A stretch of 64,000 nt of DNA from a virus. Of this stretch, positions 1 through 64,000 are shown one piece after another. The notes under the pieces were generated by a model. It made no database searches. It was not told the origin of the DNA and saw only the letters and a program-made list of their open reading frames with translations. Position 1 is the stretch's first letter; each line of letters starts with the position of its first letter. Location of the stretch: the IMG/VR virus record IMGVR_UViG_3300011339_000793, positions 58,902 to 122,901 of that record. The stretch is one strand, 5' to 3'. Made by a program: the position numbers and the translations under genes.

Positions 1-305
1 TTTTCTTCAGCAGAAATTGCTGCAGAAACATCCGTATAGTCTTCAACAACTACCGTGTCCCCCTTTATTCTGTAGTAAGCAATTTCTGCCCACTCTTTAG
101 GAGTTGTAGGTGTCTCTTCTGCCCAAAGTGATTCTTTCATATCCAAAATTCTTTGGTCATCAAGGCCAAGAACCTCCGCGTCCTTAGCAAAAACATATTT
201 AGCAGATTTTTCATCAGCAACTATTGACATAAAATGATTTTCTTCAAACTCTTTTCCAGTTCCGAAGTCGTCATCGTTATATACTCTATAAACTAATACT
301 GCCAT
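1..305 (-). CDS. Acidic hypothetical protein, truncated by window start (MAVLVYRVYNDDDFGTGKEFEENHF...)
   Basis: Translated by hand; ATG at 305, 3 nt after the stop of the giant ORF; open to position 1; not in ORF track. Confidence 0.8.
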   Translation of the reverse strand, partial: MAVLVYRVYNDDDFGTGKEFEENHFMSIVADEKSAKYVFAKDAEVLGLDDQRILDMKESLWAEETPTTPKEWAEIAYYRIKGDTVVVEDYTDVSAAISAEE

Positions 306-308
306 TTT

Positions 309-3300
309 TTATCTCCAGTCCTGAGCGTCTTTTGCCAAAAGTTCTTCTAGTCTCTTGACTAAAATATCTATTTCTGGTGCAGCACCGACAGGATACTCTC
401 TACGAAGTGCTTGTAGTGCTTGTTGACCACCGCGTTGTATCATTTCATAAAATGCTTCTGGACCCACTTCGTTCTTCAACAATCCTGGAAGAGGGTTGCG
501 TCCTTTATTTTTCATAATAAAGTCGTATGCAGATGCAGCATTTGCAGGGTTATCCCAAACCTTGCCAAGACCTTGGTCAAAGATTAGGGCCAATACTTTT
601 CCTTCATCTCCAACTTCTACATTTTTGTTGTCATCTCTAGCACCCTGCCAGTTATTCATATGCCTATCGTCATTATGAATAAGAGCATCAACCATTACCA
701 TTCCTAATATTTGATGAACTTGTCCCTTTTCTAGGAAAGGAGATGCGCCACCATAAAGTTCGTGTGCTTGTTTAGGTGCTTTAGCCAAAGCAAGATTTGT
801 TCCTGCTTCGCCTGTAATAACTACACGATTGTTTGAGTTATGTCTGATTGCTGGATACGCTCCAAGAACACCAAAAGCCCGTAGGAACGCTGCTCCTGCC
901 ATTTCAGAATCAACCTGCTCTTTTCCTTCATCTTGTTTATAGAAAAATACTTGACCAGACTCTTCGTCAACTATCTTGTATATCTGATTATCGCCTCTAC
1001 GTCCTCCGCCAGAGTCGCCAATTCTCATAACAATCCACTTTTTACCAGCAAAATCTAAGGACCCAGTTATTCCTTTTCTAGGAGCAACTTTTTCTAATTG
1101 TTTTATATCTAAATCAGCAAGAAGTCCACCTATGCCTATTTCTTTTTCGTTTGGTTCATATGCCAAACGTTCTTCCATAAGTTTGAAGTTCAGGTCAATA
1201 AGATTTTTTATTTCTCGGGCTTCGTCTGAAGATTTCTGTCCCTTAATTTTTTCTCCAATTGCTGCAGCCAATAGAACTCTTGCTCTAGGGCTTAGTGCTG
1301 CTAATGGCTTAGGTTGTCCGTCACTAAAGAATGCACGAATCTCTTCTTTCTCTGCATCTCCTCTAACACCTTTTCTTTCGAGTGCAGCCCAGAAATTTGC
1401 ATCCTTTACAATTACATTTTGCCAGAAAGGAGATAACTCCGCTGGGTTTTCGTTATTGTTTTTTCTTCCTTCTGCTACCTGAATAGGGTCTAAGTCTTTT
1501 GGACCTTTCCAATCCTTGACTGGCATAGCAGGTCTAGGAATTGCTGGAATACCGTCTACTTCAGACTTAATTTTTTCTAAATCATTAACGATGTCGTTAT
1601 ACTTGCCTCCTGCCCTATTTGACAGTCTTCTTATTGCTCTATCAATTTGACGCTCGAAGAGGTCTTTGTCGTTATCTTTGAGTGCTTTATAAGCAGCATT
1701 TACTGCGCGAATTCCATCTGCTTCAGTGCCCCAAACATCTTTAATTTTTGGAAGTTGTTTTTTAACAAATCCAAGTTCCTGTGCTGCCTTTACAAAATTA
1801 GGCGCTCCCGCAGGAGTTGGTGTTGGGGTTGGAGTAGGTGCAGTAGGTTTAGGAACAACAGTTCTTCCTGACCCTCCGCTTGGCACAGGGTTTTCTTTAC
1901 TTGGAACTCTGTAGATGCCATCAATCTGAGCATCTGCTTTCCAAGGCTTGTAAGTGTATTGTGCGCCACCTCTGTATTGAACCTTAACTTGAACTCTATT
2001 TCCTATAGGTGTGAGTTCTATAATTCTTCCAATGTTTCCATTGCGTGTTATAACGAAGTCGCCAATTTTTAGGTCTTTAACCTTTACAGAGACTTTTACT
2101 CCATTGTCTCTTACATATTGACCGCCCTCTTTCATAAACTTATCTTCTACTTCTTTTTCAGAAGGAAGAGCAACGTTATCTAGGTTAGGAATAGCACCAT
2201 CATTCATAGCCTCATCGCCAGCGGCGGCCTGTTGAATATAGTCCCCAGCACGAGCAAGTTCTACACGAGCGTTTTGTTCATTTTTATCTCTAACAACTAT
2301 TTGAATATTGCCGTTTTGTTTATTAATAACAGCGCCTTCATATACACCATTAATTTTTATCAAACTAAGTTCGAACTGTCCACCATTCAAATCTTTTACG
2401 GTCTTTTTAACAATATCTTCTGGCATACCGATAGGGCCAGCATCAATTGGTTTTGGTAGAGGTTTTTGGTCATAGCCGTTAAGCCACGCCATCATTATGT
2501 CTAGACGGTCTTTATCGGTCCCAGGCATATTAAATATGTCCATGTCATTTGCCGGGTCCCTACCTTCTCCTCTTTCAAAAGCCTTACGACCCATCTCTCG
2601 GGCGTTTTCTTTCTTTTCTTCTAAATTTTTACCTTGAACTTTGTCAGGCAAACGAACCCCTGGGTTTTCAATTGCTTTTTGAATCTCACGGTCAAGTAAA
2701 TCTTTGTCACTATCTTTAAGTGCTTCAGGGGCTTTAGCAGCAGGAGCAGGTGCTTCAGGGCTAGTCCAGTTATCTACTCCAGCACCTCTACGATTTGGCT
2801 TTGCTGCGCCACCCTTCCATTTCCTACCGTCTTCTAGGTTGGCAAGAACATCATCAGGATTATCGTTGATAAGAATTAAGTTATCAGCAACGACCATTCG
2901 TCCACCTTGATTGATTTGACCAAAGACATCTTCGTTTTCCCATTGGACAAACACATTGTCAAGATGAACTTTTCCAGCACGCGGAGCACCGCCAACTTTC
3001 TTTCCTTCATTTACTTGGTCACCAACACGACGCTTAACAATTCCTCGTCCGAACTTTCCTGCTCTCTTAGGGTCACGGAAAATAACAACATCGCCAACCA
3101 GCACTGGTTCGCCATTTGCATCTTTGAATAGACCTCTATCTTTGTTTTTAGCAGCCTGTACACGACCTTCACGAACTACTACTCTCTCGAGAGGGTCTTG
3201 ACGGCGAATGTCAGGTCGCTTTGCTCTTCCACGAGGCTTTCCTACTGGGAACTTCTCGACAGGTCCATCTCCTTCGATACGGCGGACAAACTCTAAAGGA

Positions 3301-6300
3301 GAATCTGCTTTGAATGGGCGAGGTTGTTCTTTGCCAGCGATTGGGTTGTAGACCCAGAAAACAAGACGGTCCATTCCCCACTCTTTACCGCGTTCAATAC
3401 GAATAACTTTTTCATAATGCCCGAGTTGACGATGCTTAAAGAAGTCTCCAGGTCTTACATCTTCAGCCTTGATTCCAGCCATGTCTACAGCAACGGCTTC
3501 AATCTCTTTTACGTTACGAAGAACTTCTGCTTGCTCTTCTTCGTTGAGTTGAGAGAATCTAACTTTCTCGTCTTGAGGGACTTCTTTCTTTGGTTTAGAA
3601 GATTTTGGTTTCTCTTCTTCAGCCTCAGGTGATGGCTCCGGATTTTGAATAGCATCAGAGGCACGAGCAACAAAGTCGCGTCCTTCTTTTTCTGCTTTTC
3701 TCTTTGTTGGGTGCTCGGAGTGGTGCTCGGCGAGATTGTCTCCATCAGAGTTTTGTAGAACAGCATCTACTTCATAGTTAGGAGCATCTTGTCCAGTTTC
3801 ACGAATAGATATTTGACCGTTGAGGTCTGCTGGTAGGTTCTCTACTTCAATAGTTTCTGGAGCATCATATGCATCAGCAGGAACATCTCCACGAGAAATA
3901 GGAACATCTTTTGCACGAGCCTCTTCTGGCTCTACATTTTCATCACGCTCTTGGTCTCTTAGACCGTCAGCAAACTCCTTGATGAGAGCGTCTGCTTCTG
4001 CTTCTGCTCCAGCAAAGGTTCTAAACTGTCCATCTACCTTGTAAATACTATTTCCTTCAGCATCAAAGAGTTCGGCTTCCATAAAGATTCCGCCATCTTT
4101 TTCTCCGAGTTTTACAACAGCAGATTTATCTCCAATTTCATAAACTTTTCTAAACTGCTTTCCAGCAATTGCTTCAGGAGTTTGTTCTGCCTCAGGTGCT
4201 GACTTTTTGTTTGAAACAAACTCATTTTGTGGATTGCCCTCTGGAATATCTAAATCAGCAGGGTTGATTGGACGACGAACTCCATCAAGTCTTGTTCCGT
4301 GCCAGTGCTCATAAGTATTCATTTCGCCAGTTTCAATATCGCGGCGCCAAATCTTTACTCGTCCTGGTTCTAAACCAAACTCTTCTCCAGCACGAACAGC
4401 AGTTACTTGCCAAATAATGTTTCCATCTTTAGAAGCCATAAAGTCTCCAGGAAGAATATTTCTCATTCTGGCATCTTCACGGTCAAGTAGAACAGCATTC
4501 TTATCATCAAGAACCCATTCACGAGGCATCATTCGCATTTCGCCTCTTGGATAAACAGCATTAGGTGTGAAATCTAGAATTACAACACCATCATCACGCT
4601 TTTCAATTCCATCTAGAGGAGCATCTACAGGACCCATATTGAGACCCTCAGGGTCTAGCGTAGGAGAGTTCTTTGCATCTACGATAACTTCATCGAGTTT
4701 AACTTCCTTACCGTCTAGAGCATCTCTAATTGCTTTAGCAGCGGCAAAGTCAGCAGCACCAGCATCGTCCTTAACTTTTCCTGCTTCGTAATCTCCTAAT
4801 GCCTTTTCGTATTCTTCAATTCTCTTATCAACATCGAATAGGTCTTTGCCACCATCTAGTTCAATTCCCTTATCAATGAGTTTTTCAAATATTCCTGCTA
4901 ATGCTTCCGCGTCAGCATCTGCTGCGTGCCAGTTATCTAGTTCTACTCCAAGAAATTCTGCATACTGTCCTAGACGATTTCCTTCTGGTTTTTCAGGTGC
5001 ATTTTTGAAAATATCTTGTCCCATTGCTTTTGTATCTAGCAATCCATCAGGTTGATATTCTAAACCGTGCTTATCTGCCATGCGACGAGCAACTTCATCA
5101 TCAAACTGAACATAGTGAGCAGCAAGTAGTGGTCTACCTTCAGATTCCAAACCAGCCCACTCAAAGAACCTTGCCATAGCCTCTGCTTGGTTTGGTTGCT
5201 TTGCTAAAAATTCATCTGATAAAGGATTTCCGTCAGCATCTACAGCATTTGGTTTTCCATCTTTATCAACTTCGCCAGCCCAAACATCTTTAACAGAACG
5301 ACCAGGGTTCATATAGATATTAAAACGGTCAACAATCTTTCCATCACGAACTTTTACGCCAGCAACTTGCCACGGTTCATTGCCATCTTTGTCTTTGATT
5401 CCAGTTGTTTCAAAATCAAAGAAAACAATTGTTTTATCTTTAATAAGTTCTCTAAACTTATTCCAATCTCCGCCTGCTTCACGAGCAATAGCAGCCCACT
5501 CGCCTTGGAACGCTGGCATATTAGGGACTCTCTTGCGAGATGGCTTTCTAACAGCAACAGCGTTTGGAATGTTTTGGTCTGCTTCTGGTGCCTGCTCTTT
5601 GTTATCTACTACAGGAAGATTTTCTGGAGCATTCCAACGAGCACCTGCTTCTTCAAGAAGTTTTTGGTGCTCAGCGTTCTTTGCTTCATCTTTATCTGGA
5701 ATCCATTTACCATTTACAACTTTGTTTGGTCTATGTAGTTCGCCCTCGCCCTTAGCAGGTGCTTCTACATTACGAATGACATCAATCTGAGTGTCAACTC
5801 TCCACTCTTTACGTTGTGTGCCATACCCTGGGTAATAACCTTCAACGCTTACAAAGTTAGGCTTTGTCTTGTCGTCAACAAAAACTCTTTCAATAACAAA
5901 GTGGCCCTTCTTAGGGTCAGTAGTTACATCACCAGGCTTCAAATCAGCAGCACGAACAATTGCGCGATGTGGTTGGTTAGATGGCTCTGTTGGGTCTGGG
6001 AATCTCTTCTTTGCCTCTGCTGCTTGAACGTTGTAATCTGCAAAGGCTGCATCGTATTGAGCCTGTGCTTCTGGGTCTCTAAACTTCCATTGATTGTCTG
6101 CTTTATCCTTGTATATCTTTCCAAAGTCTTTCATTTTTGGCTTAGACAAAACTGGAAGGTCGCCTTGTTCTGGCAACGGTTGAACTCCACGAATTACTTC
6201 GATTTCAGTATCTTCAATCCACTGCTTAGTGTTTTGAATAACGTGTCCAGGGTAATAACCCTCAATCTCTATACGATTTGTTCCCTCAACCTTGTTACCG

Positions 6301-9300
6301 ATTTTTGTAATAACAAAATGGTCACCAGTTGTGATATCTCCAGGCTGTAAATCTTTAACCTTAGAACGAATTCTAAATGGAGGAGGTGGACCATCTCCAC
6401 CTGCTGCTGATGGAGCAACGTTTGCTGGTTTTGGATACTCCTCAAAGCCTTCTGGAATTTCTTCTAAAGAATCTGCTTCAAAGTCTTTTGGAACCTGAGC
6501 AGATACAGTTTTCTTCTTTGCTAATGCGGGCGTTCCCCTTAATTTAGCAATTTCTTCGTCAATCTGTTCAATTCTTATGCGTGCTTTAGTTTGCATATCA
6601 GCACTTGGAGCGCCACGCTCTTGGCTAACAAACTTCTCACGTTCTACTTCTAATTCTTTTATTTTGTCTTCATTTGCAGATGGTGCTGCTTGCTCAGGGG
6701 TATCTTGAACAATACTCTCTAAGTCTTCATCAAGAATGCCCTTTACTAATGCTTCATAGTTTTTCTTTGTTTCTTCATCGCGCCACTCTAAATTATTATC
6801 AGCATCTATTGTCGCAATTGGTAAATCACCAGCAACAGCGTTATCGTCGTAGATATCAATAACTCCGTCTTGTGCAGGGAGTCTGTCATCTCCTCCATCA
6901 CGCTTAGCAAAAAGAATTCCTTCGTTTAGCCAATCTAATTCCTTAATGCCATCACGCAAAGCGTCCATTTGTTCTGGAGTTATGTCTAGAGATGCTTTTT
7001 CTTTATTTGGGTCTGGTAAATCACCAGCGTGGTCAGCAAGGCGCTTCATCTTGCCAAACTCTGACCAGCGTGCTTTCTGCTGAGCGCTAGGTAGGTCAAC
7101 AGCCCAAGAAGTTTCAAAATCGTCAAGAGCGTTTTTGTATCCATCGGTGTGGTTTTCTGGATTAGCAAAGAAATCAGCAATCTCTTGCTCGCTCATTGAA
7201 TCAAAAGCGTTTACCTGCTCATCTGAGAAACCATAGGCTTTAGCCCAGTCTTTGATTTTCTTACGAGACTCTTTTGCATAGTCTTCTTTACGAGACTCGA
7301 AGTCTGCTTCTAACTCTTTCCAATTCTTATAAGTTTTTGGTTCTAAAATATTGTTATTGTCTTTTAGAACTATATTTCCATCTTTATCAACTTGCGCTTC
7401 AAAATTATTACGTCCATAGACGTTTGAATAGTTCTCTGGAACATCTTTTCCAAATGCTCTCTTTGCTTTTTCTTGAATGCCCCAACCTTCAGGAATTCTT
7501 CTACCCTTTTCGTCAACTCTAGCCTCGGCATCTTTAGCAAGTTTTGCTTTACGCTCTGCTACTGCTTCTTTTTCTGCTTGCTGTTCTGCCATAAGACGCT
7601 CGTAAGCATTCATAGGCTTTTTCTCGACAGGAAGGTCTAAAGGAAGTTCTGCTTGTATTTCATCTGCTGGTGCATCTGCTGGAGACTCTTCTTCAGGAAT
7701 TCTTGCTTTTTCTGTTCCCTTTTTAACTTTTCTAGAACGAGAAGCACGAGATACTTCAGGTATCTCTGGTGTTGGAGGAAGTTTTCCTTCAGATTCTTCA
7801 ATCCTTGCTAAGGCATCTGCTGCATCTTCATCATTTAGTTCAACTAGGTTTCCTGCTTCAGCATATATCTTTGTAGTAGCAACGTTTGTATCAACACCTT
7901 GAAGTTGTAGAGCATCACGAATTGCTTCGCCTGGAACATTTGCTACAAACTCTTCGCCATCATCAGTTGTTAGTTTGATTGCGCCATATCCAGGTGCTTC
8001 ACCTCCTGGTTCTAATGCACGACGGAATTCTTTGAGAAGTTCTTCCTGAGAAACATTCTGCGCCAAGAAAACAGGGTTATCGCTAAAACCTACTGGAAGA
8101 TTTGGGTCTCCATCGTCTTCAGTTATCTCGCGCCAGTTTTGGAAAGGTGAAGGGTCTAATTTGTTATAGCCTTCGGGGATTTGGTCGTTAGCAATGTCCC
8201 AGTTTTTAGGAAGATGAGGTGTATGGTCTCTGCTTTCCATAAAGCGAGCCAACTCGTTCTCTGTAAGACCTTTTAGCACTGCAGGAAGAGGAGTTGTGTC
8301 TACTTTTTCTTCTTCAAACTTTGGTTCTTCAGCAGCAGGAGCAACATCTGGGCTTCCCTCTTTAGTTACACGTTCAAAAGACTCTGCAACATCTGGTTGC
8401 TCTCCAGTAACTACCTCTGGACCTTTACGAGCATCTAGAAGTGCCTTTTCGTTATCGTTAGAGCCAAGACCTTTGTCGTAAATCTTTGCTAACTCTAAAT
8501 CAGCATCTTCTCCTGCTTCATCAAGTGCTTTGTAGAGTGCTTCTGCTGGAACAAACTCTTCACCGCGATTAAAATTCAATACTCCATAACCAAAAGCATT
8601 CTCGTTATCGTCCTGAGGAAGAACTGCTTGCTCTAAAGCCTGAACTAAATCTCTTTCATCAAACATCTGCGCTATTTCAACAGGGTCATCTGTAAAGTTA
8701 GGGCTATCTTCATCTTGACGGCCTTGAACGTCGTAGTCGGCGCCCTGAGCAATCTTGTAAGCACCTTCTGGGTAGTTGAAAGCAAACTTAGATTCTTTTT
8801 CTTTAGGTAGTTGTGCCTTTGGCTTTGCTAATTCTTCTTCTTTACCTCTAAGAGCATCTTGAAGGTCTGCCCAGTTGTCAAAACCATCAATCCTGTCTCC
8901 TTCTGCTGTTTCTAAAATAAGTTTTCTCTTCTTAGTTTCACTATTTGAAACTACAAAAACATTGAAGGCTCCGTCTGCATATTTTTGAACAGATTCGCCA
9001 CCTGAGAAATCATTTTCTAATTTATTCATATCACTTTCAGATGGTTCTACCTTCTCCCAGCCTTCAGGAGAGTTTGTATATTGAATATCTGATTCATTGA
9101 TAACGTCACCTAGTTCAGAAGTAGGGACATCAATAGGCGCTGGGCTGTAGCCATCTGGTGTTGGCAGAACTGCCTTAATAAACTCGCCCTTAGAGCCAGG
9201 AACTTGTGCGATACGACCATCTGGAAGTTCAATCTGAACTAAATCACCTAAACCATCAGCAACTGTTCTTCCAACAAGACTAAATACTTGACTTCCTCGT

Positions 9301-9950
9301 CTAACTAAAGCACGAAGTCCTCCACCTTGGAAAGCAAACTTTCCTTCTCGGTCACGACGCTGTAGTTGAGCACGAGCAGAACGAGCAGCAGATGAGTTTC
9401 CATCACCAAAGGCTGCTAGCAATGCTTCTGTTGGAATCATTCCTTGAGGCAGTGCTGATAGAACTGAAGTGTAATAAGTGTGTTCTACAGAACCTACTTC
9501 TGAGGAGAAGGCAGAAGAAAGAATAGTTTTAGCACGTTCATCTGTAATTCTTGGGTCATCAGCAAACCAACGAGACCTAGCATTTCTTGCTGCAGATGCT
9601 GTTAGTGAGTGCTCCCTAGTTGAGCGAGGATGCGAAGTTGGTAAAAGGTCTGTGTTGCTAAGTGTAAGAGAACTATTTTTATTACTTTGAGCAAGAGTGA
9701 TGTAAGAAGAGAGTTCCTTTAGAGCCATATGCTCTCTAAGAGAGAAAGGTAGGTTCTTTGTTTTTTGTAAAGAACGTAATACAACTGTAAAAGCAGAACG
9801 CTTAGTTACTCTACGAGATACAGAAGTGTTTTGATTTACTTCTTCAAGGATATCTACAACAGCGTCACGCAAACGCAAAGCCTGCTTTGTGGAGTTGGCA
9901 CGACGGCCTTGCTCAGCGATAGCGAAACTCAAACGACGAACTCTACTCAT
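309..9950 (-). CDS. Giant (3213 aa) multidomain polyvalent head-associated protein with DEDDh exonuclease and C-terminal kinase domains
   Basis: Uninterrupted ORF two genes downstream of portal; FFDFETTG/HYVQFD/HAADAD exonuclease motifs; GDSGGG/FFYK/DRHMNN/DQG kinase motifs; internal repeats. Confidence 0.85.
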   Translation of the reverse strand: MSRVRRLSFAIAEQGRRANSTKQALRLRDAVVDILEEVNQNTSVSRRVTKRSAFTVVLRSLQKTKNLPFSLREHMALKELSSYITLAQSNKNSSLTLSNTDLLPTSHPRSTREHSLTASAARNARSRWFADDPRITDERAKTILSSAFSSEVGSVEHTYYTSVLSALPQGMIPTEALLAAFGDGNSSAARSARAQLQRRDREGKFAFQGGGLRALVRRGSQVFSLVGRTVADGLGDLVQIELPDGRIAQVPGSKGEFIKAVLPTPDGYSPAPIDVPTSELGDVINESDIQYTNSPEGWEKVEPSESDMNKLENDFSGGESVQKYADGAFNVFVVSNSETKKRKLILETAEGDRIDGFDNWADLQDALRGKEEELAKPKAQLPKEKESKFAFNYPEGAYKIAQGADYDVQGRQDEDSPNFTDDPVEIAQMFDERDLVQALEQAVLPQDDNENAFGYGVLNFNRGEEFVPAEALYKALDEAGEDADLELAKIYDKGLGSNDNEKALLDARKGPEVVTGEQPDVAESFERVTKEGSPDVAPAAEEPKFEEEKVDTTPLPAVLKGLTENELARFMESRDHTPHLPKNWDIANDQIPEGYNKLDPSPFQNWREITEDDGDPNLPVGFSDNPVFLAQNVSQEELLKEFRRALEPGGEAPGYGAIKLTTDDGEEFVANVPGEAIRDALQLQGVDTNVATTKIYAEAGNLVELNDEDAADALARIEESEGKLPPTPEIPEVSRASRSRKVKKGTEKARIPEEESPADAPADEIQAELPLDLPVEKKPMNAYERLMAEQQAEKEAVAERKAKLAKDAEARVDEKGRRIPEGWGIQEKAKRAFGKDVPENYSNVYGRNNFEAQVDKDGNIVLKDNNNILEPKTYKNWKELEADFESRKEDYAKESRKKIKDWAKAYGFSDEQVNAFDSMSEQEIADFFANPENHTDGYKNALDDFETSWAVDLPSAQQKARWSEFGKMKRLADHAGDLPDPNKEKASLDITPEQMDALRDGIKELDWLNEGILFAKRDGGDDRLPAQDGVIDIYDDNAVAGDLPIATIDADNNLEWRDEETKKNYEALVKGILDEDLESIVQDTPEQAAPSANEDKIKELEVEREKFVSQERGAPSADMQTKARIRIEQIDEEIAKLRGTPALAKKKTVSAQVPKDFEADSLEEIPEGFEEYPKPANVAPSAAGGDGPPPPFRIRSKVKDLQPGDITTGDHFVITKIGNKVEGTNRIEIEGYYPGHVIQNTKQWIEDTEIEVIRGVQPLPEQGDLPVLSKPKMKDFGKIYKDKADNQWKFRDPEAQAQYDAAFADYNVQAAEAKKRFPDPTEPSNQPHRAIVRAADLKPGDVTTDPKKGHFVIERVFVDDKTKPNFVSVEGYYPGYGTQRKEWRVDTQIDVIRNVEAPAKGEGELHRPNKVVNGKWIPDKDEAKNAEHQKLLEEAGARWNAPENLPVVDNKEQAPEADQNIPNAVAVRKPSRKRVPNMPAFQGEWAAIAREAGGDWNKFRELIKDKTIVFFDFETTGIKDKDGNEPWQVAGVKVRDGKIVDRFNIYMNPGRSVKDVWAGEVDKDGKPNAVDADGNPLSDEFLAKQPNQAEAMARFFEWAGLESEGRPLLAAHYVQFDDEVARRMADKHGLEYQPDGLLDTKAMGQDIFKNAPEKPEGNRLGQYAEFLGVELDNWHAADADAEALAGIFEKLIDKGIELDGGKDLFDVDKRIEEYEKALGDYEAGKVKDDAGAADFAAAKAIRDALDGKEVKLDEVIVDAKNSPTLDPEGLNMGPVDAPLDGIEKRDDGVVILDFTPNAVYPRGEMRMMPREWVLDDKNAVLLDREDARMRNILPGDFMASKDGNIIWQVTAVRAGEEFGLEPGRVKIWRRDIETGEMNTYEHWHGTRLDGVRRPINPADLDIPEGNPQNEFVSNKKSAPEAEQTPEAIAGKQFRKVYEIGDKSAVVKLGEKDGGIFMEAELFDAEGNSIYKVDGQFRTFAGAEAEADALIKEFADGLRDQERDENVEPEEARAKDVPISRGDVPADAYDAPETIEVENLPADLNGQISIRETGQDAPNYEVDAVLQNSDGDNLAEHHSEHPTKRKAEKEGRDFVARASDAIQNPEPSPEAEEEKPKSSKPKKEVPQDEKVRFSQLNEEEQAEVLRNVKEIEAVAVDMAGIKAEDVRPGDFFKHRQLGHYEKVIRIERGKEWGMDRLVFWVYNPIAGKEQPRPFKADSPLEFVRRIEGDGPVEKFPVGKPRGRAKRPDIRRQDPLERVVVREGRVQAAKNKDRGLFKDANGEPVLVGDVVIFRDPKRAGKFGRGIVKRRVGDQVNEGKKVGGAPRAGKVHLDNVFVQWENEDVFGQINQGGRMVVADNLILINDNPDDVLANLEDGRKWKGGAAKPNRRGAGVDNWTSPEAPAPAAKAPEALKDSDKDLLDREIQKAIENPGVRLPDKVQGKNLEEKKENAREMGRKAFERGEGRDPANDMDIFNMPGTDKDRLDIMMAWLNGYDQKPLPKPIDAGPIGMPEDIVKKTVKDLNGGQFELSLIKINGVYEGAVINKQNGNIQIVVRDKNEQNARVELARAGDYIQQAAAGDEAMNDGAIPNLDNVALPSEKEVEDKFMKEGGQYVRDNGVKVSVKVKDLKIGDFVITRNGNIGRIIELTPIGNRVQVKVQYRGGAQYTYKPWKADAQIDGIYRVPSKENPVPSGGSGRTVVPKPTAPTPTPTPTPAGAPNFVKAAQELGFVKKQLPKIKDVWGTEADGIRAVNAAYKALKDNDKDLFERQIDRAIRRLSNRAGGKYNDIVNDLEKIKSEVDGIPAIPRPAMPVKDWKGPKDLDPIQVAEGRKNNNENPAELSPFWQNVIVKDANFWAALERKGVRGDAEKEEIRAFFSDGQPKPLAALSPRARVLLAAAIGEKIKGQKSSDEAREIKNLIDLNFKLMEERLAYEPNEKEIGIGGLLADLDIKQLEKVAPRKGITGSLDFAGKKWIVMRIGDSGGGRRGDNQIYKIVDEESGQVFFYKQDEGKEQVDSEMAGAAFLRAFGVLGAYPAIRHNSNNRVVITGEAGTNLALAKAPKQAHELYGGASPFLEKGQVHQILGMVMVDALIHNDDRHMNNWQGARDDNKNVEVGDEGKVLALIFDQGLGKVWDNPANAASAYDFIMKNKGRNPLPGLLKNEVGPEAFYEMIQRGGQQALQALRREYPVGAAPEIDILVKRLEELLAKDAQDWR
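330..1050 (-). other. HipA/PI3K-PI4K-like kinase domain within the giant protein
   Basis: Gly loop GDSGGG, Lys in FFYKQ, Glu in SEM, catalytic NDDRHMNNW, DQG (DFG-like); boundaries approximate. Confidence 0.75.
4870..5440 (-). other. DEDDh (DnaQ-like) 3'-5' exonuclease domain within the giant protein
   Basis: ExoI VFFDFETTG, ExoII AHYVQFDDEV, ExoIII WHAADADAEAL; boundaries approximate. Confidence 0.85.
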
Positions 9951-10902
9951 TGTCGGTTCCCTCCTCCTCTAAATCTGGAAGTAAATCAGCATCTAAACTT
10001 TCATAACCCAACGAGGCTAATAGTGATGCCCTCTTGAAAGGGTCTTCCCCGTTTCTTACTGCACGAAGCCAAGAGGCGCGAATAGCGTGCTCTGCTTCAT
10101 AACCAAAACCTGAATACTCTGCCATAGCAATAATTGCATCTTCTGGGTATTCGTAATCTTCTCTATTACCAAGAACGATTTCAAGTTCTTTGTTTACAGA
10201 ATATTCTTGTAACTCTTCTTCTGTAGGACCAAAGTCTTTTTTAATAACTCCATCTGGAAGAACTGCGAATCGGCAAACCCCTAGTGGTTCTACTGGTAAA
10301 GAAATAATCTTGCATTGGTCTCCGCCAGCATACAAAACACAGTTGCCGCAGTGGACGCCAATCTCTTGGTCTTTGTTTTCCGCAGCGGGTGTGTATCCAG
10401 CCCAGATGCCACTCTCGTCCTCGTTAAACTTTCCATACTTCTGAGAAATTTCTATCAGTGCTTGTGCTAAATCTTGTTCTTCTGGAACTAAACCAGCAGC
10501 GGTAACAGATGCGCTCTTTTTTGCAGAGCGAGCGTGGTTTGGTGGAAGCAAATCATTATCTGATTTATAAGCAGAGTTAGTTGGCCTTCCAGACTTAACT
10601 AACTTGAGGAACGCATTTACACGACCCATTGCCCATTGATTGCGATTCATTCCAGGACGATGAGAAACGGAGTATGCACCAGCACCACGGCGATAAACTG
10701 CTTTGAGTTTTCCTAGAGTAACTTTCTTAGAAGACTTTTCATTGTGAGTTTTTACTTTTTCCTTCAAAGACTTTTCTACAGCAGCAGAAAACTTTACAGA
10801 GCGAGCAACCTTTCCTGTTGCAGCAGAGCCCTTCGAGTTTTTAGATGAACCCTTTACTCTATCTTTTTTAGGAGCAGGAGTTTGAGAAACAGTGCGTGAC
10901 AT
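9943..10902 (-). CDS. Head-associated protein with KAVYRRGxGAY...DNDLLP domain and a 4-Cys (HiPIP-like) motif
   Basis: Between portal and giant gene; motif LKAVYRRGAGAY-WAMGRVNAFL-DNDLLP, which I recall from phage head-morphogenesis loci; CGNC..C..GVC. Confidence 0.6.
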   Translation of the reverse strand: MSRTVSQTPAPKKDRVKGSSKNSKGSAATGKVARSVKFSAAVEKSLKEKVKTHNEKSSKKVTLGKLKAVYRRGAGAYSVSHRPGMNRNQWAMGRVNAFLKLVKSGRPTNSAYKSDNDLLPPNHARSAKKSASVTAAGLVPEEQDLAQALIEISQKYGKFNEDESGIWAGYTPAAENKDQEIGVHCGNCVLYAGGDQCKIISLPVEPLGVCRFAVLPDGVIKKDFGPTEEELQEYSVNKELEIVLGNREDYEYPEDAIIAMAEYSGFGYEAEHAIRASWLRAVRNGEDPFKRASLLASLGYESLDADLLPDLEEEGTDNE

Positions 10903-12638
10903 TACTGCTCTTGCCCTTCTGCTGGTGGTGTTGCAGGTGTGCCTGTCGCTGCTTCCATAATCATCTGGTCTTGTTCAGGAGTTAGTCCTGTCTGAGAGGC
11001 TGCTACTGCTTGCTCTCTAACTTCATTCATAACTTCTGGAGCAAAGGTTGCTAAGAATGTTTCAGTAAGTTCTGGAGTAATAACTCCCTTCTCATAAAGC
11101 ATTCGTAGAGCAAATTCGTTTGGAGTAGGTGCATCTGCATCAGAGAAACCGTGAGCACGACGCCACGCTGCTTGGCTAACAACGCCTCTGTCATATCCAG
11201 AGTCTGCATCCATAGCACGGTCATTGCGTGTAGAAACTTGTGAAGGGTCATACCAAACAACAACCTTCTCAACTTCGGCAGGGCTGTATCCCTGTGCTAC
11301 TAGATATGGACGAAGATAAACAATTGTTAGTGCATCAGCAATAAGTAGCATCAAAGGTTCAATGTGAGCCTTGTATAGGGACTCATCAATTTGAAGCGCA
11401 TTGGAATACTTAACATTTGCAAGACCTGTAACAACATCCTTTGGAACATCAAGTCCCTGCAAGATACGTTCTAGAACACGGTCAGCACGTTGAACTAGTG
11501 TTGCATCGAAAGAACGCTCGAACTTAAATTGCTTAATTTTTTCGCCAAGTTCGGCTGGACCACGAATGATAAGAGGAACAACTGCTGATGCTGACTCTTC
11601 ATCACGAATAGGAGTCGTCATAGCATCAATTAGTTGCTCTTCAAACTCGTCTTCTGCCTCTTCGGCAACAAACTGAGGATTCAATTCGTTATCTGTATCG
11701 TATGGATAGTCTGGGTCGCCACCTGATGCAACTGATAAACCATCTGGTAAATAAAGTGCGCCAGCGTTTAGGCGAGAGCGTGCTGTTGCACGGAAAGTTC
11801 TGTTAAGAAGAAGTAGTTCGGCGCAAAGGTCAAGCAAACCACGAAGTGATGAATCTGCTTCATCTGAATAACGAGGATGTGAACGCCAGATACGACCAAC
11901 AAACGCACCGTTCGTTAGTTTTTTAACTCCAACAGCATTTTGTGCGCCGTATTGTTCACGACGAGAAATAACGTTGTATCCACCGCGAGCATCTGTTGTA
12001 ACTTCATCAATAGAACGAATGTCCCAAGACTCTGGAAGTCCAGTTCCCTTTAGTTCTGGCATTTGAACTAAATAACATTCTCCAGCAACTGAAAGATTTA
12101 GAGCAGCATCACGAAGAAGCCCTGCTTGTCCGCCATATGCAGAATCTAAACGAGCAAGTGCTCGTTCTGCTGCTGCTGCGAGTTTAGGGTCAATCGTTGA
12201 GGAATCTCTTACAGATGCTGGAGAGTCTGAAGGATTGTCAATAACTGCTGCATAAATACGAATACGAGAAACAACGGATGCAACTAAATTAAAAGCGTAT
12301 TTGATTTCTCCAATAGCATCATAATATTCCCAGGCTTCTGCTTGCCAAGCCGATGACGCTGCAGCACGCCGATTTCTAAACTGTTCAAACTCCCCTTTAT
12401 CATTTATCTTTAGTTGAACTGCTGCTGCTGTTAGTGTTCTTGGAGTTGAATATGATACTGACTGAGCAGGATTAGAAATAAATACTGATGCTGGTCCAGT
12501 TACTTTTGGAGTTGTATATAAAACTTGAGTAGAACGACTGCTTCTGCGTCGTGAATTCTTTTTGGATTTAGGAGTATCTTTTTGTTTTGCTGGTGCCGGT
12601 TGCGCTGGCTGTTCTTCGCCGCGTTGAAAAACGCTCAT
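10902..12638 (-). CDS. Portal protein
   Basis: AWQAEAWEYYDAIGEIKYAFNLVASVVSRIRIYAA resembles actinophage (cluster B-like) portals; SD AAGGAG precedes ATG at 12638. Confidence 0.85.
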   Translation of the reverse strand: MSVFQRGEEQPAQPAPAKQKDTPKSKKNSRRRSSRSTQVLYTTPKVTGPASVFISNPAQSVSYSTPRTLTAAAVQLKINDKGEFEQFRNRRAAASSAWQAEAWEYYDAIGEIKYAFNLVASVVSRIRIYAAVIDNPSDSPASVRDSSTIDPKLAAAAERALARLDSAYGGQAGLLRDAALNLSVAGECYLVQMPELKGTGLPESWDIRSIDEVTTDARGGYNVISRREQYGAQNAVGVKKLTNGAFVGRIWRSHPRYSDEADSSLRGLLDLCAELLLLNRTFRATARSRLNAGALYLPDGLSVASGGDPDYPYDTDNELNPQFVAEEAEDEFEEQLIDAMTTPIRDEESASAVVPLIIRGPAELGEKIKQFKFERSFDATLVQRADRVLERILQGLDVPKDVVTGLANVKYSNALQIDESLYKAHIEPLMLLIADALTIVYLRPYLVAQGYSPAEVEKVVVWYDPSQVSTRNDRAMDADSGYDRGVVSQAAWRRAHGFSDADAPTPNEFALRMLYEKGVITPELTETFLATFAPEVMNEVREQAVAASQTGLTPEQDQMIMEAATGTPATPPAEGQEQ

Positions 12639-12672
12639 AGACTTACTCCTTGTCTTTTTCACGGAATACGAA

Positions 12673-61102: not shown

Positions 61103-64000
61103 ATGTTGCGCCATTGCGCTGCTAGTTTTATTAGTTTGCCCTATTGTAGAAAAGTAATAATAGGGCTATTTGGCTATTCCTTTTTTGTAGTAATCTATTC
61201 AATACTTACCCCTTCATTGGCTTATGCCACTGAGAGTTCCACTCAAAACGGAGGTGCTTCGGAAAATAATAATTTAGATTCCAATGCGTCATCGGAGGTG
61301 GTCCAACAAGACCCTTCAGTTGTCTCAGCGCAAGGGACAGTGACTGAAGCGTCAACTGCTGTAGCAACGGCAGAGTCTGCGGTAACAACATTAGAAACAA
61401 AAGTAACTCAACTTACGGAGGTAGCATCATCAATATCTCAACCAGCCCAGGTCGTAACTACTGCTATACAAGGCGCAACTAACTCTGTAGAGACAGCCAG
61501 CGTAGCCACCCAGTCGGCAGCATCAGCAGTTAGCACAGCGCAAACAGCCATCACAGCAACGGAAACTGCCAATCAAACTTTGGCTCAAGCAACCTCTACA
61601 GTTGCGACACAGACAGCGGTAGTTGCACAAGCACAAACAACTCTTACACAGGCATCAGCAGCAGTAGATTCTCAAGAAGCAGTAGTCGTCTCTGCTCAGT
61701 CGGAAGCAACATCAGCAGCAGCAGCAGCAAGTGCTGCAAACACAACTACAACAGTTACAGAGACTTTTGCTAATAACACCACAAGCGTAGTTACAGTCAC
61801 TACTGGCTCGGGTGTGTCTATCGGAGGCAATTGGAATACTGCTCAAACATCAGGACCAGCACTTGTAATTATTAATCCAGCAAACAATGTTGTAATTGAT
61901 GTGAACCCAAGTAATACAGGAACTGTTACTTCTGTAACTATGGGCGTATACGCTAAAAATGGCGATACAACAATGACAGCAACAAACACAGATGGCTCAA
62001 CTAACACAACAATTATTGATAATAATGTTTCTTCCCAAACACAGGCGGTTGGTTACACTTCTACTGAAACTATAACTGGCTCATCCATCGAGACGCTAAC
62101 AATTACAAAAGATGCTGATTACTACATTATTGATAATATTGCTGTAACTAAGACTTCTTCAGACCCTGCTCTAACAGCAGCAGCAGAGTCAGCAGCAACT
62201 GCTCTTTCCACGGAGCAAAGCACTCTTACAACTTTACAGACAGCAGAAGCAACTGCGACTACAACTCTCTCTACCGAGCAAGGAATTCTTACAACTTCAC
62301 AGACGGCACAAGTTAATGCTCAGGCGGCAGCAACTACCGCTACAACAACTATGCAGACAGCAGCCACCACCGCTCTCTCATCTTCCGAAACAGCAACAGC
62401 CTCTGTAGCAGAAGCAGTTGTTGTTATTGCTGTAGCGCAAGTAGTTGTTTCTTCAGCAGCAATTGAGACAGTATCCAGTGCACTACAGACAATTGTTGCT
62501 TCTTCGGATGCTCTACCAATACAAAAAACAGAAATAGTTGCAGTAGTTGATGCCGCTGTTGATGCAGTCGTTGAGGCGCAAGAAGCCATTGAGACAGCAA
62601 CAACATCTATGCAAACAGCCCAAACGCTTGCAGAGACTGCTCCTACAGTAGAAGCAGCAACAGCAGTAGTTGTAGATAAGACAGAAGTTTTAGCGCAAGC
62701 GCAAGCAGAAGTAGATGCTCAGGAAGTAGTGGTGGCACAAGCCACTTCCGCTGAGGCTGCTGCACAAGCAGTGGTAGATGCTGCTACATCTCCTGGATTA
62801 AAAGTAGAGGTTTATAACACTCAGGGGCAAAACAATGCTCCAGTATTACCAACAAATGCTGTTCCTATTCTGACAACTACAGATACAAATGGAATTAATG
62901 AGCAATGGGGTGGAGGAGCAGTTGCGGGCTCTAATCGCAGCGAGGATGTAATTGTTAAATACTCTGGTCAACTAACTGCCCCTGTTACTGGAACGATTAG
63001 TCTTTATGCTCCAGGAGATGACGGAGTGAGAGTTATTCTTGATGGAAATACTGTTATAAATGACTGGTTTGATAAAGGTGGGGGTGGCTCTACACGCACC
63101 TATAATGTTGTAGCCAATGACCCGATGGACTTTGTTCTTTGGTATTACGAAAACGGCGGAGGCGCCTGGGTTCAATTTTATTGGAACTTAGGAGCAGGAA
63201 CTGCAATAGTTCCAGGCTCAGCATTTACTCAATCAAGTGCAACTTCACAACAACTTTCTGATTTAGCAACTGCTGAAGCAACTCTTGCTCAAGAACAAGA
63301 CGAACTTGAAGTTTTAGATTTACAGGAAGACGTTGCCCAACAAAACTTACTAGGTGCCCAGCAGAACTTAGTAGCCGCTCAGACTGCTGTAACTGCTATG
63401 GAAACTGCTGTTTCAGATGCACAGACTGCAATAACAAAAACAGTAGAGGCTATTGCTGCTGTCCAAACTGCACAGACAACAGTTCAAGAAGAAGTCATTC
63501 TGCAAAGCCCTATCGAAGCCCCAACAAACATTGTTGTTACACAGTTAGAGAATGGCGATATTCAGGTTTCTTGGGACCCACCATCAGGAATAATATCCCC
63601 AGAGCGTTATGCAATTTCGTGGTCCGCTGGGAATAGCGGATGGGGAATAGCAACTGGTAACGCAGGAGATGCAAATGCTCTTAACACAAGCATTGTTCTT
63701 TCAGCATCTTTGTTTGAGTCAACTGGTGGATTAGATACTACATATCAAATTAGTGTTCGCTCAGATAATGACTCACTTGCTAAATATTCAAGCGTAGTTG
63801 CTACTCAAGTTTTTGTTGATGATTTAACTCCACCTCCTCCTCCACCTCCTCCAGTAGAACCAGAACCAGAACAACCTCCTGTTGAACCAGAGCCTCCAAT
63901 CGAACCTCCTGCTGAAGAACCTCCAGCTGAAGAACCACCAGCAGAAGAACCTCCTGCTGAAGAACCTCCTGCTGAAGAACCTCCTGCTGAAGAACCCCCT
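61103..64000 (+). CDS. Large secreted/surface protein (>966 aa, truncated): signal/TM, Ala/Thr-rich stalk, PA14 domain, FN3 domain, (EEPPA)n repeats
   Basis: Hand-translated; GLKVEVY...DDGVRVILDG..VINDW..WYYENGGGA (PA14); APTNIVV..VSWDPP..Y (FN3); open to window end, absent from ORF track. Confidence 0.8.
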   Translation, partial: MLRHCAASFISLPYCRKVIIGLFGYSFFVVIYSILTPSLAYATESSTQNGGASENNNLDSNASSEVVQQDPSVVSAQGTVTEASTAVATAESAVTTLETKVTQLTEVASSISQPAQVVTTAIQGATNSVETASVATQSAASAVSTAQTAITATETANQTLAQATSTVATQTAVVAQAQTTLTQASAAVDSQEAVVVSAQSEATSAAAAASAANTTTTVTETFANNTTSVVTVTTGSGVSIGGNWNTAQTSGPALVIINPANNVVIDVNPSNTGTVTSVTMGVYAKNGDTTMTATNTDGSTNTTIIDNNVSSQTQAVGYTSTETITGSSIETLTITKDADYYIIDNIAVTKTSSDPALTAAAESAATALSTEQSTLTTLQTAEATATTTLSTEQGILTTSQTAQVNAQAAATTATTTMQTAATTALSSSETATASVAEAVVVIAVAQVVVSSAAIETVSSALQTIVASSDALPIQKTEIVAVVDAAVDAVVEAQEAIETATTSMQTAQTLAETAPTVEAATAVVVDKTEVLAQAQAEVDAQEVVVAQATSAEAAAQAVVDAATSPGLKVEVYNTQGQNNAPVLPTNAVPILTTTDTNGINEQWGGGAVAGSNRSEDVIVKYSGQLTAPVTGTISLYAPGDDGVRVILDGNTVINDWFDKGGGGSTRTYNVVANDPMDFVLWYYENGGGAWVQFYWNLGAGTAIVPGSAFTQSSATSQQLSDLATAEATLAQEQDELEVLDLQEDVAQQNLLGAQQNLVAAQTAVTAMETAVSDAQTAITKTVEAIAAVQTAQTTVQEEVILQSPIEAPTNIVVTQLENGDIQVSWDPPSGIISPERYAISWSAGNSGWGIATGNAGDANALNTSIVLSASLFESTGGLDTTYQISVRSDNDSLAKYSSVVATQVFVDDLTPPPPPPPPVEPEPEQPPVEPEPPIEPPAEEPPAEEPPAEEPPAEEPPAEEPPAEEPP

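What the first reader, a model, noticed from the sequence alone, without database searches (positions are those of the whole stretch)
309..9950. 3213-aa polyvalent protein in the head module combining a DnaQ-like exonuclease, repeated beta-barrels and a HipA/PI3K-like kinase
Seen: one ORF placed just after portal and a small head protein, where MuF/maturation/ejection genes usually lie. It carries intact DEDDh and kinase motifs separated by acidic Pro/Ala/Glu linkers. Established: phages package multi-effector polyvalent proteins that enter with the DNA. Inference: a virion-packaged, possibly proteolytically processed toolkit that degrades or trims nucleic acid and phosphorylates host targets at infection. 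I do not recognise this domain combination as described.
Basis: partly seen in the sequence, partly recalled or inferred. Interest (0 to 1): 0.85.

Follow-up and report, generated by a model that had tools for sequence, protein, structure and literature searches.

The report
Giant phage head protein, swappable kinase
A 3213-residue protein encoded between the portal and the capsid protease of a freshwater actinobacterial phage joins a conserved scaffold and an intact DNA/RNA-trimming exonuclease to a lipid-kinase-like kinase that is exchanged between near-identical phages together with a small neighbouring gene, which looks like a virus-carried weapon with its own safety catch.

Summary
The ORF is real: window 309-9950, minus strand, 3213 aa. 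It lies in the order portal, 319-aa DUF5824 protein, giant, 268-aa protein, 1969-aa prohead protease polyprotein, major capsid protein.

The DEDDh exonuclease is confirmed (Pfam RNase_T, E 3e-13). Its five catalytic residues are invariant in all 75 aligned family members. The C-terminus is a genuine atypical kinase of the PI3K/PI4K-HipA-CotH fold (AF2 pLDDT 87.6; CotH Z 12.8, HipA 11.2, PI4KIIα 10.7). The Lys, Glu, DRHxxN and DxG positions are conserved. A ~70-aa repeat occurs at least five times, but its barrel fold was not tested.

The protein belongs to a family of at least 83 metagenomic giants. They share a fixed N-terminal chassis, two repeats and the exonuclease. Their C-termini vary:
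- kinase in at least 50;
- ArdC-N + MPTase-PolyVal, UvrD helicase or an ADP-ribosyltransferase in others.

Two phages 92-97% identical in flanking DNA have replaced one block. It covers giant residues ~2594-3213 plus the first ~133 residues of the downstream ORF. That small domain follows all 7 C-terminal-kinase giants examined and none of 3 without one.

Best reading: a virion-carried polyvalent effector with a polymorphic kinase and cognate-partner cassette. Packaging itself is inferred, not shown. I class it as a new variant of a known kind.

The parts
309..9950 (-). Giant ORF, 3213 aa, no cysteine, net charge about -131
9576..9950 (-). N1 helical domain (res 1-125), DUF5824-like. It is shared with the upstream 319-aa protein and ends in the conserved TDLLPxSHPxSTRxHx[LM]TASAL motif
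9051..9395 (-). N2 module (res 186-300): QRRDRxGRF motif plus a small beta domain. It is also found in the 1969-aa protease polyprotein and at the N-termini of post-portal giants of cultured actinophages. Candidate capsid-targeting module
8421..8777 (-). A1 alpha/beta module (res 392-510), first of two copies
7851..8183 (-). A2 module (res 590-700), second copy
6396..7850 (-). Variable, charged, partly helical middle region (res 701-1185), present in only about 20 of 83 homologues
6165..6398 (-). Repeat B1 (res 1185-1262)
5751..5990 (-). Repeat B2 (res 1321-1400)
4887..5426 (-). DEDDh 3'-5' exonuclease (res 1509-1688); catalytic residues D1512, E1514, D1617, H1675, D1680
4251..4487 (-). Repeat B3 (res 1822-1900)
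3255..3494 (-). Repeat B4 (res 2153-2232)
1881..2111 (-). Repeat B6 (res 2614-2690), first element of the swapped cassette
1131..1805 (-). Helical accessory domain before the kinase (res 2716-2940)
312..1127 (-). PI3K/PI4K-HipA-CotH-like kinase domain (res 2942-3213): K3005, E3016, N3093, D3095-R-H3097, N3100, D3125, G3127
1..2171 (-). Exchangeable cassette: giant res ~2594-3213 plus the first ~133 res of the next ORF. It runs about 100 bp past the window's left edge
3..305 (-). Start of the 268-aa downstream ORF. Its acidic N-domain is linked to the kinase. Its Cys-rich C-domain lies outside the window
9943..10902 (-). 319-aa DUF5824 protein, always directly upstream of the giant
10902..12662 (-). 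Portal protein

Best explanation
The ORF encodes a head-module polyvalent effector of a freshwater low-GC actinophage. A conserved N-terminal chassis (N1, the RDxGRF/N2 module and two A modules) probably directs a few copies into the procapsid; this step is inferred. The protein would then leave the virion with the DNA, also inferred. A conserved DEDDh 3'-5' exonuclease, flanked by small repeat domains, would trim nucleic-acid 3' ends; the domain and its catalytic residues are shown, the substrate is unknown. A C-terminal helical-plus-kinase unit of the PI3K/PI4K-HipA-CotH fold would phosphorylate a target in the infected cell; the fold and motifs are shown, the target is unknown. The kinase end behaves as a polymorphic cassette. 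[quoted passage not shown] That small acidic domain is most likely a cognate inhibitor, immunity protein or chaperone that keeps the kinase harmless while virions are built.
For: Gene order portal / DUF5824 / giant / small ORF / protease polyprotein / MCP is conserved in the own genome and in 8 related loci. There are 83 homologous giants. The chassis is present in 75-81 of them and the exonuclease in 78, with variable C-termini that include the polyvalent hallmarks ArdC-N, MPTase-PolyVal, UvrD and ADPrib_exo_Tox. The exonuclease hits Pfam at 3e-13 and PHROG 192 at 1e-24, and its DEDDh residues are invariant in 75/75 sequences. For the kinase, only 48 relatives exist among 1.84 billion representatives, nearly all at the C-terminal ends of large proteins. 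Nine alignment columns are invariant, giving the K/E/DRHxxN/DxG pattern. PF00454 hits 17/23 relatives and the profile matches PI4K type II at E 0.009. The AF2 model has pLDDT 87.6 and matches CotH at Z 12.8, HipA at 11.2, PI4KIIα at 10.7, and Vps34 by Foldseek at probability 1.0. A kinase HMM finds 50/83 giants with a C-terminal kinase. Cassette: L010 and L011 are 92-97% identical in DNA on both sides but diverge over giant res ~2594-3213 plus the first 133-142 res of the next ORF, whose C-domain stays about 99% identical. The small N-domain follows 7/7 C-terminal-kinase giants, once as a free-standing 117-aa ORF, and 0/3 others. The N2 module recurs in the protease polyprotein and at the N-termini of post-portal giants of cultured phages: Pumpernickel gp82, Mimi gp77 and gp79. 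Cysteine is about 70-fold depleted: 65/83 giants have none, as do the MCP and a 1272-aa protein further downstream that I take, from its size and position only, to be the tape measure. All giants are acidic.
Against: There are no virion proteomics for this phage or any relative, so packaging and injection rest on gene position, shared modules and analogy. The N-terminal 760 residues match no solved or predicted viral fold, and no MuF domain is detected. The window's own kinase does not reach any Pfam threshold. Kinase activity, substrate and toxicity are untested. The link between the kinase and the small domain rests on 10 loci, several of them closely related. The candidate protease motif is not enriched in the giant (1 observed, 1.1 expected).
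Confidence: 0.6

Rival explanations
1. It is a phage-borne polymorphic toxin used mainly in competition between phages or between lysogens, like the MuF toxins. The injected kinase harms cells or rival phages that lack the matching immunity domain, rather than serving host take-over.
For: C-terminal cassette swapping between 92-97% identical phages, with a co-varying downstream domain. MuF toxins sit right after the portal gene, and about 89% of them are followed by a small candidate immunity ORF (PMC5576092). The relative DSL-LC01 was called lysogenic by its authors.
Against: No MuF domain is detected. Many family members carry ArdC, helicase and peptidase domains typical of anti-restriction establishment functions rather than toxins. 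No integrase or lysogeny evidence was examined for this genome. The universally conserved exonuclease does not fit a simple toxin-delivery stalk.
Confidence: 0.15
2. It is an internal head or ejection-apparatus protein whose enzymes act on the phage's own DNA ends or on the cell envelope at entry. The kinase may act as a true lipid kinase on phosphatidylinositol lipids, which Actinobacteria make.
For: The closest sequence-level relatives of the kinase are lipid kinases: PF00454 and PI4K type II. A helical domain precedes the kinase as in Vps34/PI3K. The exonuclease and chassis are conserved in nearly all members, as expected of a core virion function. That Actinobacteria have phosphatidylinositol is general knowledge and was not tested here.
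Against: The best structural matches are protein kinases, CotH and HipA. A housekeeping entry function would not be expected to need a co-varying partner domain or to be replaced by ArdC, helicase or ART modules in relatives.
Confidence: 0.12
3. It is not a virion component. It is a cytoplasmic late multi-enzyme for replication or repair (public annotation: 'DNA polymerase III epsilon subunit-like') that merely lies in the head gene cluster.
For: JGI names several homologues DNA polymerase III epsilon subunit-like protein. PHROG 192 is 'DNA polymerase exonuclease subunit'. Mimi gp77 is annotated as DNA helicase.
Against: The position between portal and protease is strictly conserved in every locus examined. 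An N-terminal module is shared with the protease polyprotein and other head-module proteins. Cysteine is excluded as in the capsid protein. No polymerase domain is present, and the exonuclease is under 6% of the length.
Confidence: 0.08

Closest known systems
Polyvalent proteins of phages and conjugative elements (Iyer, Burroughs, Anand, de Souza, Aravind 2017, PMC5512222)
   Same: A very large multidomain protein encoded beside virion packaging genes, with several unrelated enzymatic domains in one chain. Homologues on the same chassis carry the hallmark ArdC-N, MPTase-PolyVal, SF1 helicase and ART domains.
   Different: The window's member has none of the hallmark Pfam domains. Its kinase has the full PI3K/PI4K-HipA-CotH fold, not the truncated Ser/Thr/Tyr kinase described there. 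A DEDDh exonuclease is not among the described domains. The fixed N-terminal chassis, with C-terminal cassette exchange that includes the next gene, resembles polymorphic toxins, an organisation that paper says polyvalent proteins do not follow.
MuF polymorphic toxins of temperate phages (Jamet et al. 2017, PMC5576092)
   Same: A head-module gene next to the portal, with a constant N-terminal part, a variable C-terminal effector and a small downstream ORF that goes with the effector.
   Different: No MuF domain is detected, and one gene separates it from the portal. It is about 5-10 times larger and has a conserved internal exonuclease. The partner domain is usually fused to a Cys-rich head-module domain. 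No kinase toxin of this fold is listed for MuF in the text read.
HipA/HipT toxin kinases with HipB/HipS antitoxins; CotH; type II PI4K; H. pylori CtkA
   Same: Same kinase fold (Z 9.6-12.8) and the same catalytic-loop logic (DRHxxN-like loop, DxG). For Hip systems, a small cognate protein neutralises the kinase.
   Different: About 10-14% identity. HipA_C is hit by 1 of 23 relatives only. There is no HipA N-domain evidence. The kinase is embedded at the end of a 3213-aa phage protein, and the partner is unrelated in sequence to known antitoxins (no Pfam hit).
Phage N4 virion RNA polymerase and crAss-like cargo proteins (general knowledge)
   Same: A protein of more than 3000 aa thought to travel through the tail with the DNA, which sets a precedent for size.
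   Different: No RNA polymerase domains are detected. Relatedness was not tested beyond Pfam and PHROGs.
Microbacterium phage Pumpernickel gp82 (2235 aa) and Arthrobacter phage Mimi gp77 (2709 aa)
   Same: They come immediately after the portal. The N2 module lies at the N-terminus (E 3e-18 and 1e-8). gp82 ends in the same kinase type (PF00454 7e-5; kinase HMM 3e-13). gp77 carries a UvrD helicase, as some metagenomic giants do.
   Different: They have no DEDDh exonuclease and no N1/A chassis. They are annotated 'hypothetical protein' and 'DNA helicase', and they come from high-GC soil hosts.

Membership tests
DEDDh / DnaQ-like 3'-5' exonuclease (Pfam RNase_T PF00929) | Profile match above the curated threshold | tested here: met
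   51.2 bits against a cut-off of 24, covering the full profile 1-164; PHROG 192 at E 1e-24
DEDDh / DnaQ-like 3'-5' exonuclease (Pfam RNase_T PF00929) | Exo I D-x-E, Exo II D, Exo III H-x4-D catalytic residues | tested here: met
   D1512, E1514, D1617, H1675 and D1680 are present and invariant in 75/75 aligned sequences
DEDDh / DnaQ-like 3'-5' exonuclease (Pfam RNase_T PF00929) | Exonuclease activity and substrate | not testable with these tools
   Needs an enzyme assay
PI3K/PI4K-like atypical kinase superfamily (with HipA, CotH, CtkA, Fam20) | Bilobal kinase fold | tested here: met
   AF2 pLDDT 87.6. VIA Z 12.8 for CotH (247 aligned, rmsd 4.0), 11.2 for HipA and 10.7 for PI4KIIα. All top rows are kinases of this group. 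Foldseek matches Vps34 at probability 1.0, E 6e-5.
PI3K/PI4K-like atypical kinase superfamily (with HipA, CotH, CtkA, Fam20) | Catalytic Lys, helix-C Glu, DRHxxN catalytic loop, DxG metal-binding motif | tested here: met
   K3005 is at least 90% conserved. E3016, N3093, D3095, R3096, H3097, N3100 and D3125 are invariant, and G3127 is at least 90% conserved, in 23 sequences.
Pfam PI3_PI4_kinase (PF00454) proper | Profile match above the gathering score (27.1 bits) | tested here: not met
   No hit for the window's protein even at E<=1. Relatives hit at E 2e-6 to 0.01, and the scores seen are below the cut-off (24-25 bits).
HipA toxin kinase family | HipA_C profile match and HipA N-terminal domains | tested here: inconclusive
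   HipA_C is hit by 1/23 relatives at E 0.001. The structural Z of 11.2 includes some N-terminal alignment.
Polyvalent proteins (Iyer et al. 2017) | Two or more unrelated effector or enzymatic domains in one polypeptide of a phage or conjugative element | tested here: met
   Exonuclease plus kinase
Polyvalent proteins (Iyer et al. 2017) | Encoded among virion packaging or late genes | tested here: met
   Lies between the portal and the protease and MCP genes
Polyvalent proteins (Iyer et al. 2017) | Hallmark domains (MPTase-PolyVal, ArdC-N, helicases, ART) | tested here: not met
   Absent from this protein. Present in homologues on the same chassis: P0037 and P0074 and the list.
Polyvalent proteins (Iyer et al. 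2017) | Delivered into the host with the DNA | not testable with these tools
   Needs virion proteomics and infection assays
MuF polymorphic toxins | N-terminal MuF domain (PF04233/PF06152 or MuF3/4) | tested here: not met
   No Pfam or PHROG MuF hit. The MuF3/4 profiles were not available, so a very distant relation is not excluded.
MuF polymorphic toxins | Variable C-terminal effector with a cognate downstream ORF | tested here: met

The most novel reading that the evidence does not exclude
This is a previously undescribed, non-MuF delivery chassis of freshwater actinophages. It carries a universally conserved DEDDh exonuclease and a hypervariable PI3K/PI4K-like kinase with a dedicated neutralising domain encoded in the next gene. 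Kinase alleles turn over between co-circulating, otherwise identical phages, which implies an ongoing arms race with host defences or with rival phages. The kinase may be the first phage-injected kinase of this fold and might act on actinobacterial phosphatidylinositol lipids.
Probability: 0.3. Interest if true: 0.8.

Novelty: new variant of a known kind. Interest (0 to 1): 0.64.

Why it matters
If packaged and injected, these giants would be a major and so far unnoticed class of early effectors in phages of abundant freshwater Actinobacteria. They would show that the toxin-plus-immunity cassette logic of polymorphic toxins also operates inside polyvalent virion proteins built on a non-MuF chassis. 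The family offers a natural library of swappable effectors (kinase, ArdC-peptidase, helicase, ART) on one scaffold. It also offers a kinase fold not yet known from phage virions, and a conserved exonuclease whose target could be phage DNA ends, host nucleic acids or defence signals. Cultured relatives such as Microbacterium phage Pumpernickel gp82 and Arthrobacter phage Mimi gp77 make the packaging question directly testable.

Tried and rejected
- Megablast of the ORF against the phage collection found nothing. tblastn of the C-terminal 863 aa also found nothing.
- phmmer of the kinase region against PDB found nothing.
- Protein Atlas on the C-terminal 424 aa gave only a weak PI3_PI4 lead at rank 24. 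Atlas on B1-B2 gave no usable hit.
- A profile of the five B repeats against PDB gave only chance-level rows, so the barrel fold remains untested.
- The AF2 model of residues 1-760 (pLDDT 75) gave no convincing match. Foldseek against PDB had nothing at E<=0.001. BFVD returned only other actinophage head-module proteins at E>=2.5e-3. VIA wide gave a best Z of 6.5 on short helical stretches.
- Complex prediction of residues 2701-3213 with the downstream N-domain returned no verdict (score 0.13, below the mark of 0.32). This is not evidence either way.
- I considered the Cys-rich C-domain of the 268-aa protein as the immunity element and rejected it. It stays about 99% identical across kinase alleles and occurs fused to other head genes next to giants without a C-terminal kinase.
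- The candidate protease motif [VILM][TV][AS][AS] at linkers occurs once in the giant (1.1 expected) and lies inside N1, not in the linkers.
- Literature searches for an earlier description found none: polyvalent + actinobacteriophage, PI3K-like + virion, CotH/HipA/PI4K + bacteriophage, and the DSL-LC01 paper.
Full report
**1. The observation**

The window holds one uninterrupted ORF at 309-9950 on the minus strand, 3213 aa with an ATG start. Its start overlaps the stop of a 319-aa ORF (9943-10902) by 8 nt. Its stop lies 3 nt before the next ORF, which starts at 305.

Upstream of the 319-aa ORF is the portal gene at 10902-12662 (phrog_776, E 2e-108). The 319-aa protein carries DUF5824.

The assembly is a single 122.9-kb contig. 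Reading on from the giant, it encodes:
- a 268-aa protein;
- a 1969-aa protein containing the head maturation protease (phrog_18402, E 8e-57);
- the major head protein (phrog_777, E 3e-79);
- a major tail protein and a head-tail adaptor.

The portal is 72% identical to that of Actinomycetia phage DSL-LC01, a lake metagenome phage. It is about 60% identical to portals of 186-195-kb Microbacterium phages, and 866 actinophage records match in all. With 40-45% GC, the host is probably a low-GC freshwater actinobacterium; this is an inference.

**2. The two enzymes**

*Exonuclease.* Pfam RNase_T matches residues 1509-1688 over the whole profile (51.2 bits, cut-off 24). PHROG 192 matches at E 1e-24. 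The nearest solved sequences are PolC-type and related exonucleases. D1512, E1514, D1617, H1675 and D1680 are invariant in all 75 aligned sequences, that is the query plus 74 homologues.

*Kinase, sequence level.* The C-terminus gave no Pfam hit on its own. An exhaustive HMMER search of residues 2701-3213 against 1.84 billion representatives found only 48 relatives, almost all at the C-terminal ends of long proteins.

An alignment of 23 of them (A1) has these invariant columns, in P0001 numbering:
- E3016;
- N3093, D3095, R3096, H3097 and N3100, a DRHxxN catalytic loop;
- D3125, a DxG motif.

K3005 and G3127 are conserved in at least 90%. Seventeen of the 23 hit PF00454 (PI3_PI4_kinase) and one hits HipA_C. 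The profile's best PDB sequence matches are type II PI 4-kinases (E 0.009-0.02) and then CtkA.

*Kinase, fold level.* The AF2 model of residues 2701-3213 is confident (pLDDT 87.6, pTM 0.78).
- Foldseek ranks Vps34, PI3Kγ, PI3KC2α and PI4KIIIβ first (probability up to 1.0, E from 6e-5). The alignments span a helical domain plus the kinase, but TM-scores are low.
- Re-alignment with VIA gives CotH Z 12.8, HipA 11.2, PI4KIIα 10.7, and HipT, CtkA and Fam20C about 9.6-10, over model residues ~243-513.

Membership of PF00454 proper or of HipA is not established.

**3. Other parts**

Internal comparison and profiles define these modules:
- **N1** (1-125) is related to the DUF5824 region of the upstream 319-aa protein.
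- **N2** (186-300) starts with a near-invariant QRRDRxGRF motif. A small beta domain follows in the AF2 model.
- **A** is a duplicated alpha/beta module (392-510 and 590-700).
- **B** is a repeat of about 70 aa with at least five copies.

Low-complexity P/A/E/K linkers separate the domains. The N-terminal 760 residues have no convincing structural relative. The beta-barrel nature of the B repeat was not tested.

**4. The family**

A word-indexed search found 83 homologous giants of 1976-5050 aa in metagenomes. Mapping them onto the query gives these counts out of 83:

| Part | Members with it |
|---|---|
| N1, N2, A1, A2 | 75-81 |
| B1, B2 | 77 |
| Exonuclease | 78 |
| Middle region (701-1185) | about 20 |

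The C-terminal third is variable. A kinase HMM finds a C-terminal kinase in 50 of 83 and weak internal partial hits in 13 more. The other 20 carry ArdC-N + MPTase-PolyVal, UvrD-type helicase or ADPrib_exo_Tox.

These are hallmark domains of the 'polyvalent proteins' of Iyer et al. 2017. That paper describes a different, truncated kinase type and no DEDDh domain.

Among 50,697 deposited phage records, only DSL-LC01 shares part of the chassis, and none shares the repeat-exonuclease core. DSL-LC01 has a 3289-aa 'hypothetical protein' at the same place, and its paper does not discuss it.

Cultured relatives have analogous genes directly after the portal:
- Pumpernickel gp82 (2235 aa) has N2 at its N-terminus and the same kinase type at its C-terminus.
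- Mimi gp77 (2709 aa, annotated 'DNA helicase') has N2 plus a UvrD helicase.

N2 also occurs in Mimi gp79, in a 466-aa DSL-LC01 protein and inside this genome's protease polyprotein.

**5. The cassette**

Proteins P0005 and P0006 are 92-94% identical to the query over residues 1-2593 and 1-2394. After that they are unalignable or only 26% identical, yet both still end in a kinase of this type.

At the DNA level, their contigs (L011, L010) are 92-97% identical to this genome on both sides of one replaced block. The block runs from giant residue ~2594 to residue 133-142 of the next ORF. The break inside that ORF falls at a conserved [VI]TAA junction. The Cys-rich C-domain after the junction is about 99% identical.

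The N-domain of that ORF is found directly downstream of all seven C-terminal-kinase giants for which I had DNA: the window, L005, L006, L010, L011, L012 and L013. In L012 it is a free-standing 117-aa ORF (HMM E 4e-13). It is absent downstream of three giants without a C-terminal kinase: L007, L008 and DSL-LC01.

The Cys-rich domain, by contrast, wanders among head genes irrespective of the kinase.

The kinase unit and the small acidic domain therefore form one exchangeable two-gene cassette. This is the signature of effector-immunity or effector-chaperone pairs. Another first-stage note on this window (e1-5927600) had proposed a toxin-immunity arrangement from gene position alone. The comparative test here supports it for the N-domain only.

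**6. Packaging**

Packaging is not shown. The indirect support is:
- invariant synteny between portal and protease;
- the N2 module shared with the protease polyprotein and other head-module proteins;
- homologues bearing classic injected-protein domains;
- a beads-on-a-string build of small domains and linkers;
- extreme cysteine exclusion.

On cysteine: the fraction is 0.0001 in the 83 giants and 0.0074 in this genome's other large ORFs. Sixty-five of 83 giants have none. The capsid protein and a 1272-aa protein further downstream also have none. I take the 1272-aa protein to be the tape measure from its size and position only; it was not checked against any family library.

**7. Verdict**

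The interpretation as a polyvalent, probably virion-carried effector is the best-supported reading (about 0.6). The mechanism steps of packaging, injection, substrates and inhibition by the partner domain are inferred.

It is a new variant of a known kind. It has polyvalent-protein content and polymorphic-toxin logic on a non-MuF chassis. The exonuclease-plus-kinase combination is widespread in metagenomes but undescribed in the literature I could search.

Noticed in passing
genome 58400-58800 (left of the window); L008:6584-7999; L007:20720-22030; L001:28566-29300: The Cys-rich domain (CPPATQD...CGNC...C...CEAFDFKC...C) annotated 'high potential iron-sulfur protein' in DSL-LC01 is a mobile head-module domain. 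It is fused to the kinase-partner domain here, to the DUF5824 protein in L008, and to a protease-polyprotein C-terminal fragment in L007. It has no Pfam hit.
   Followed up: partly
window 309-9950 and 83 homologues: Near-total cysteine exclusion: 26 Cys in about 250,000 residues, and 65 of 83 proteins have none. All members also carry a strong net negative charge. The capsid protein and a 1272-aa tail-region protein of this genome also have no Cys.
   Followed up: partly
genome 49895-58084 (MCP and 1969-aa protease polyprotein); window 9600 region; 319-aa protein res 133: The motif [VILM][TV][AS][AS] is enriched in the capsid protein (5 observed, 1.2 expected) and the protease polyprotein (6 observed, 1.5 expected). 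It marks the domain junction of the 268-aa protein and the end of N1 in both the giant and the 319-aa protein. It is a candidate prohead-protease site.
   Followed up: partly
L007:6822-7295, L008:6110-6580, locus of P0055: A ferritin-like (PF00210) gene or domain sits between the portal and the DUF5824 gene in some relatives, and inside the protease polyprotein in another. It is absent at that place in this window.
   Followed up: no
L002:13972-20679 (Microbacterium phage Pumpernickel gp82): A deposited 'hypothetical protein' of a cultured phage ends in an unannotated PI3K/PI4K-like kinase with intact K, E, DRHxxN and DxG positions.
   Followed up: partly
window 63940-64000 (contig end): The contig ends inside a tandem 15-nt repeat (GAAGAACCTCCTGCT, encoding a Pro/Ala/Glu repeat) within a 966+ aa ORF that runs off the end. 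This is probably an assembly break in a repeat.
   Followed up: no
P0058-P0068, P0078, P0082 (homologues): Thirteen giants without a C-terminal kinase give weak partial hits to the kinase N-lobe about 1240 residues before their C-terminus. This may be a degenerate or very divergent internal kinase.
   Followed up: no
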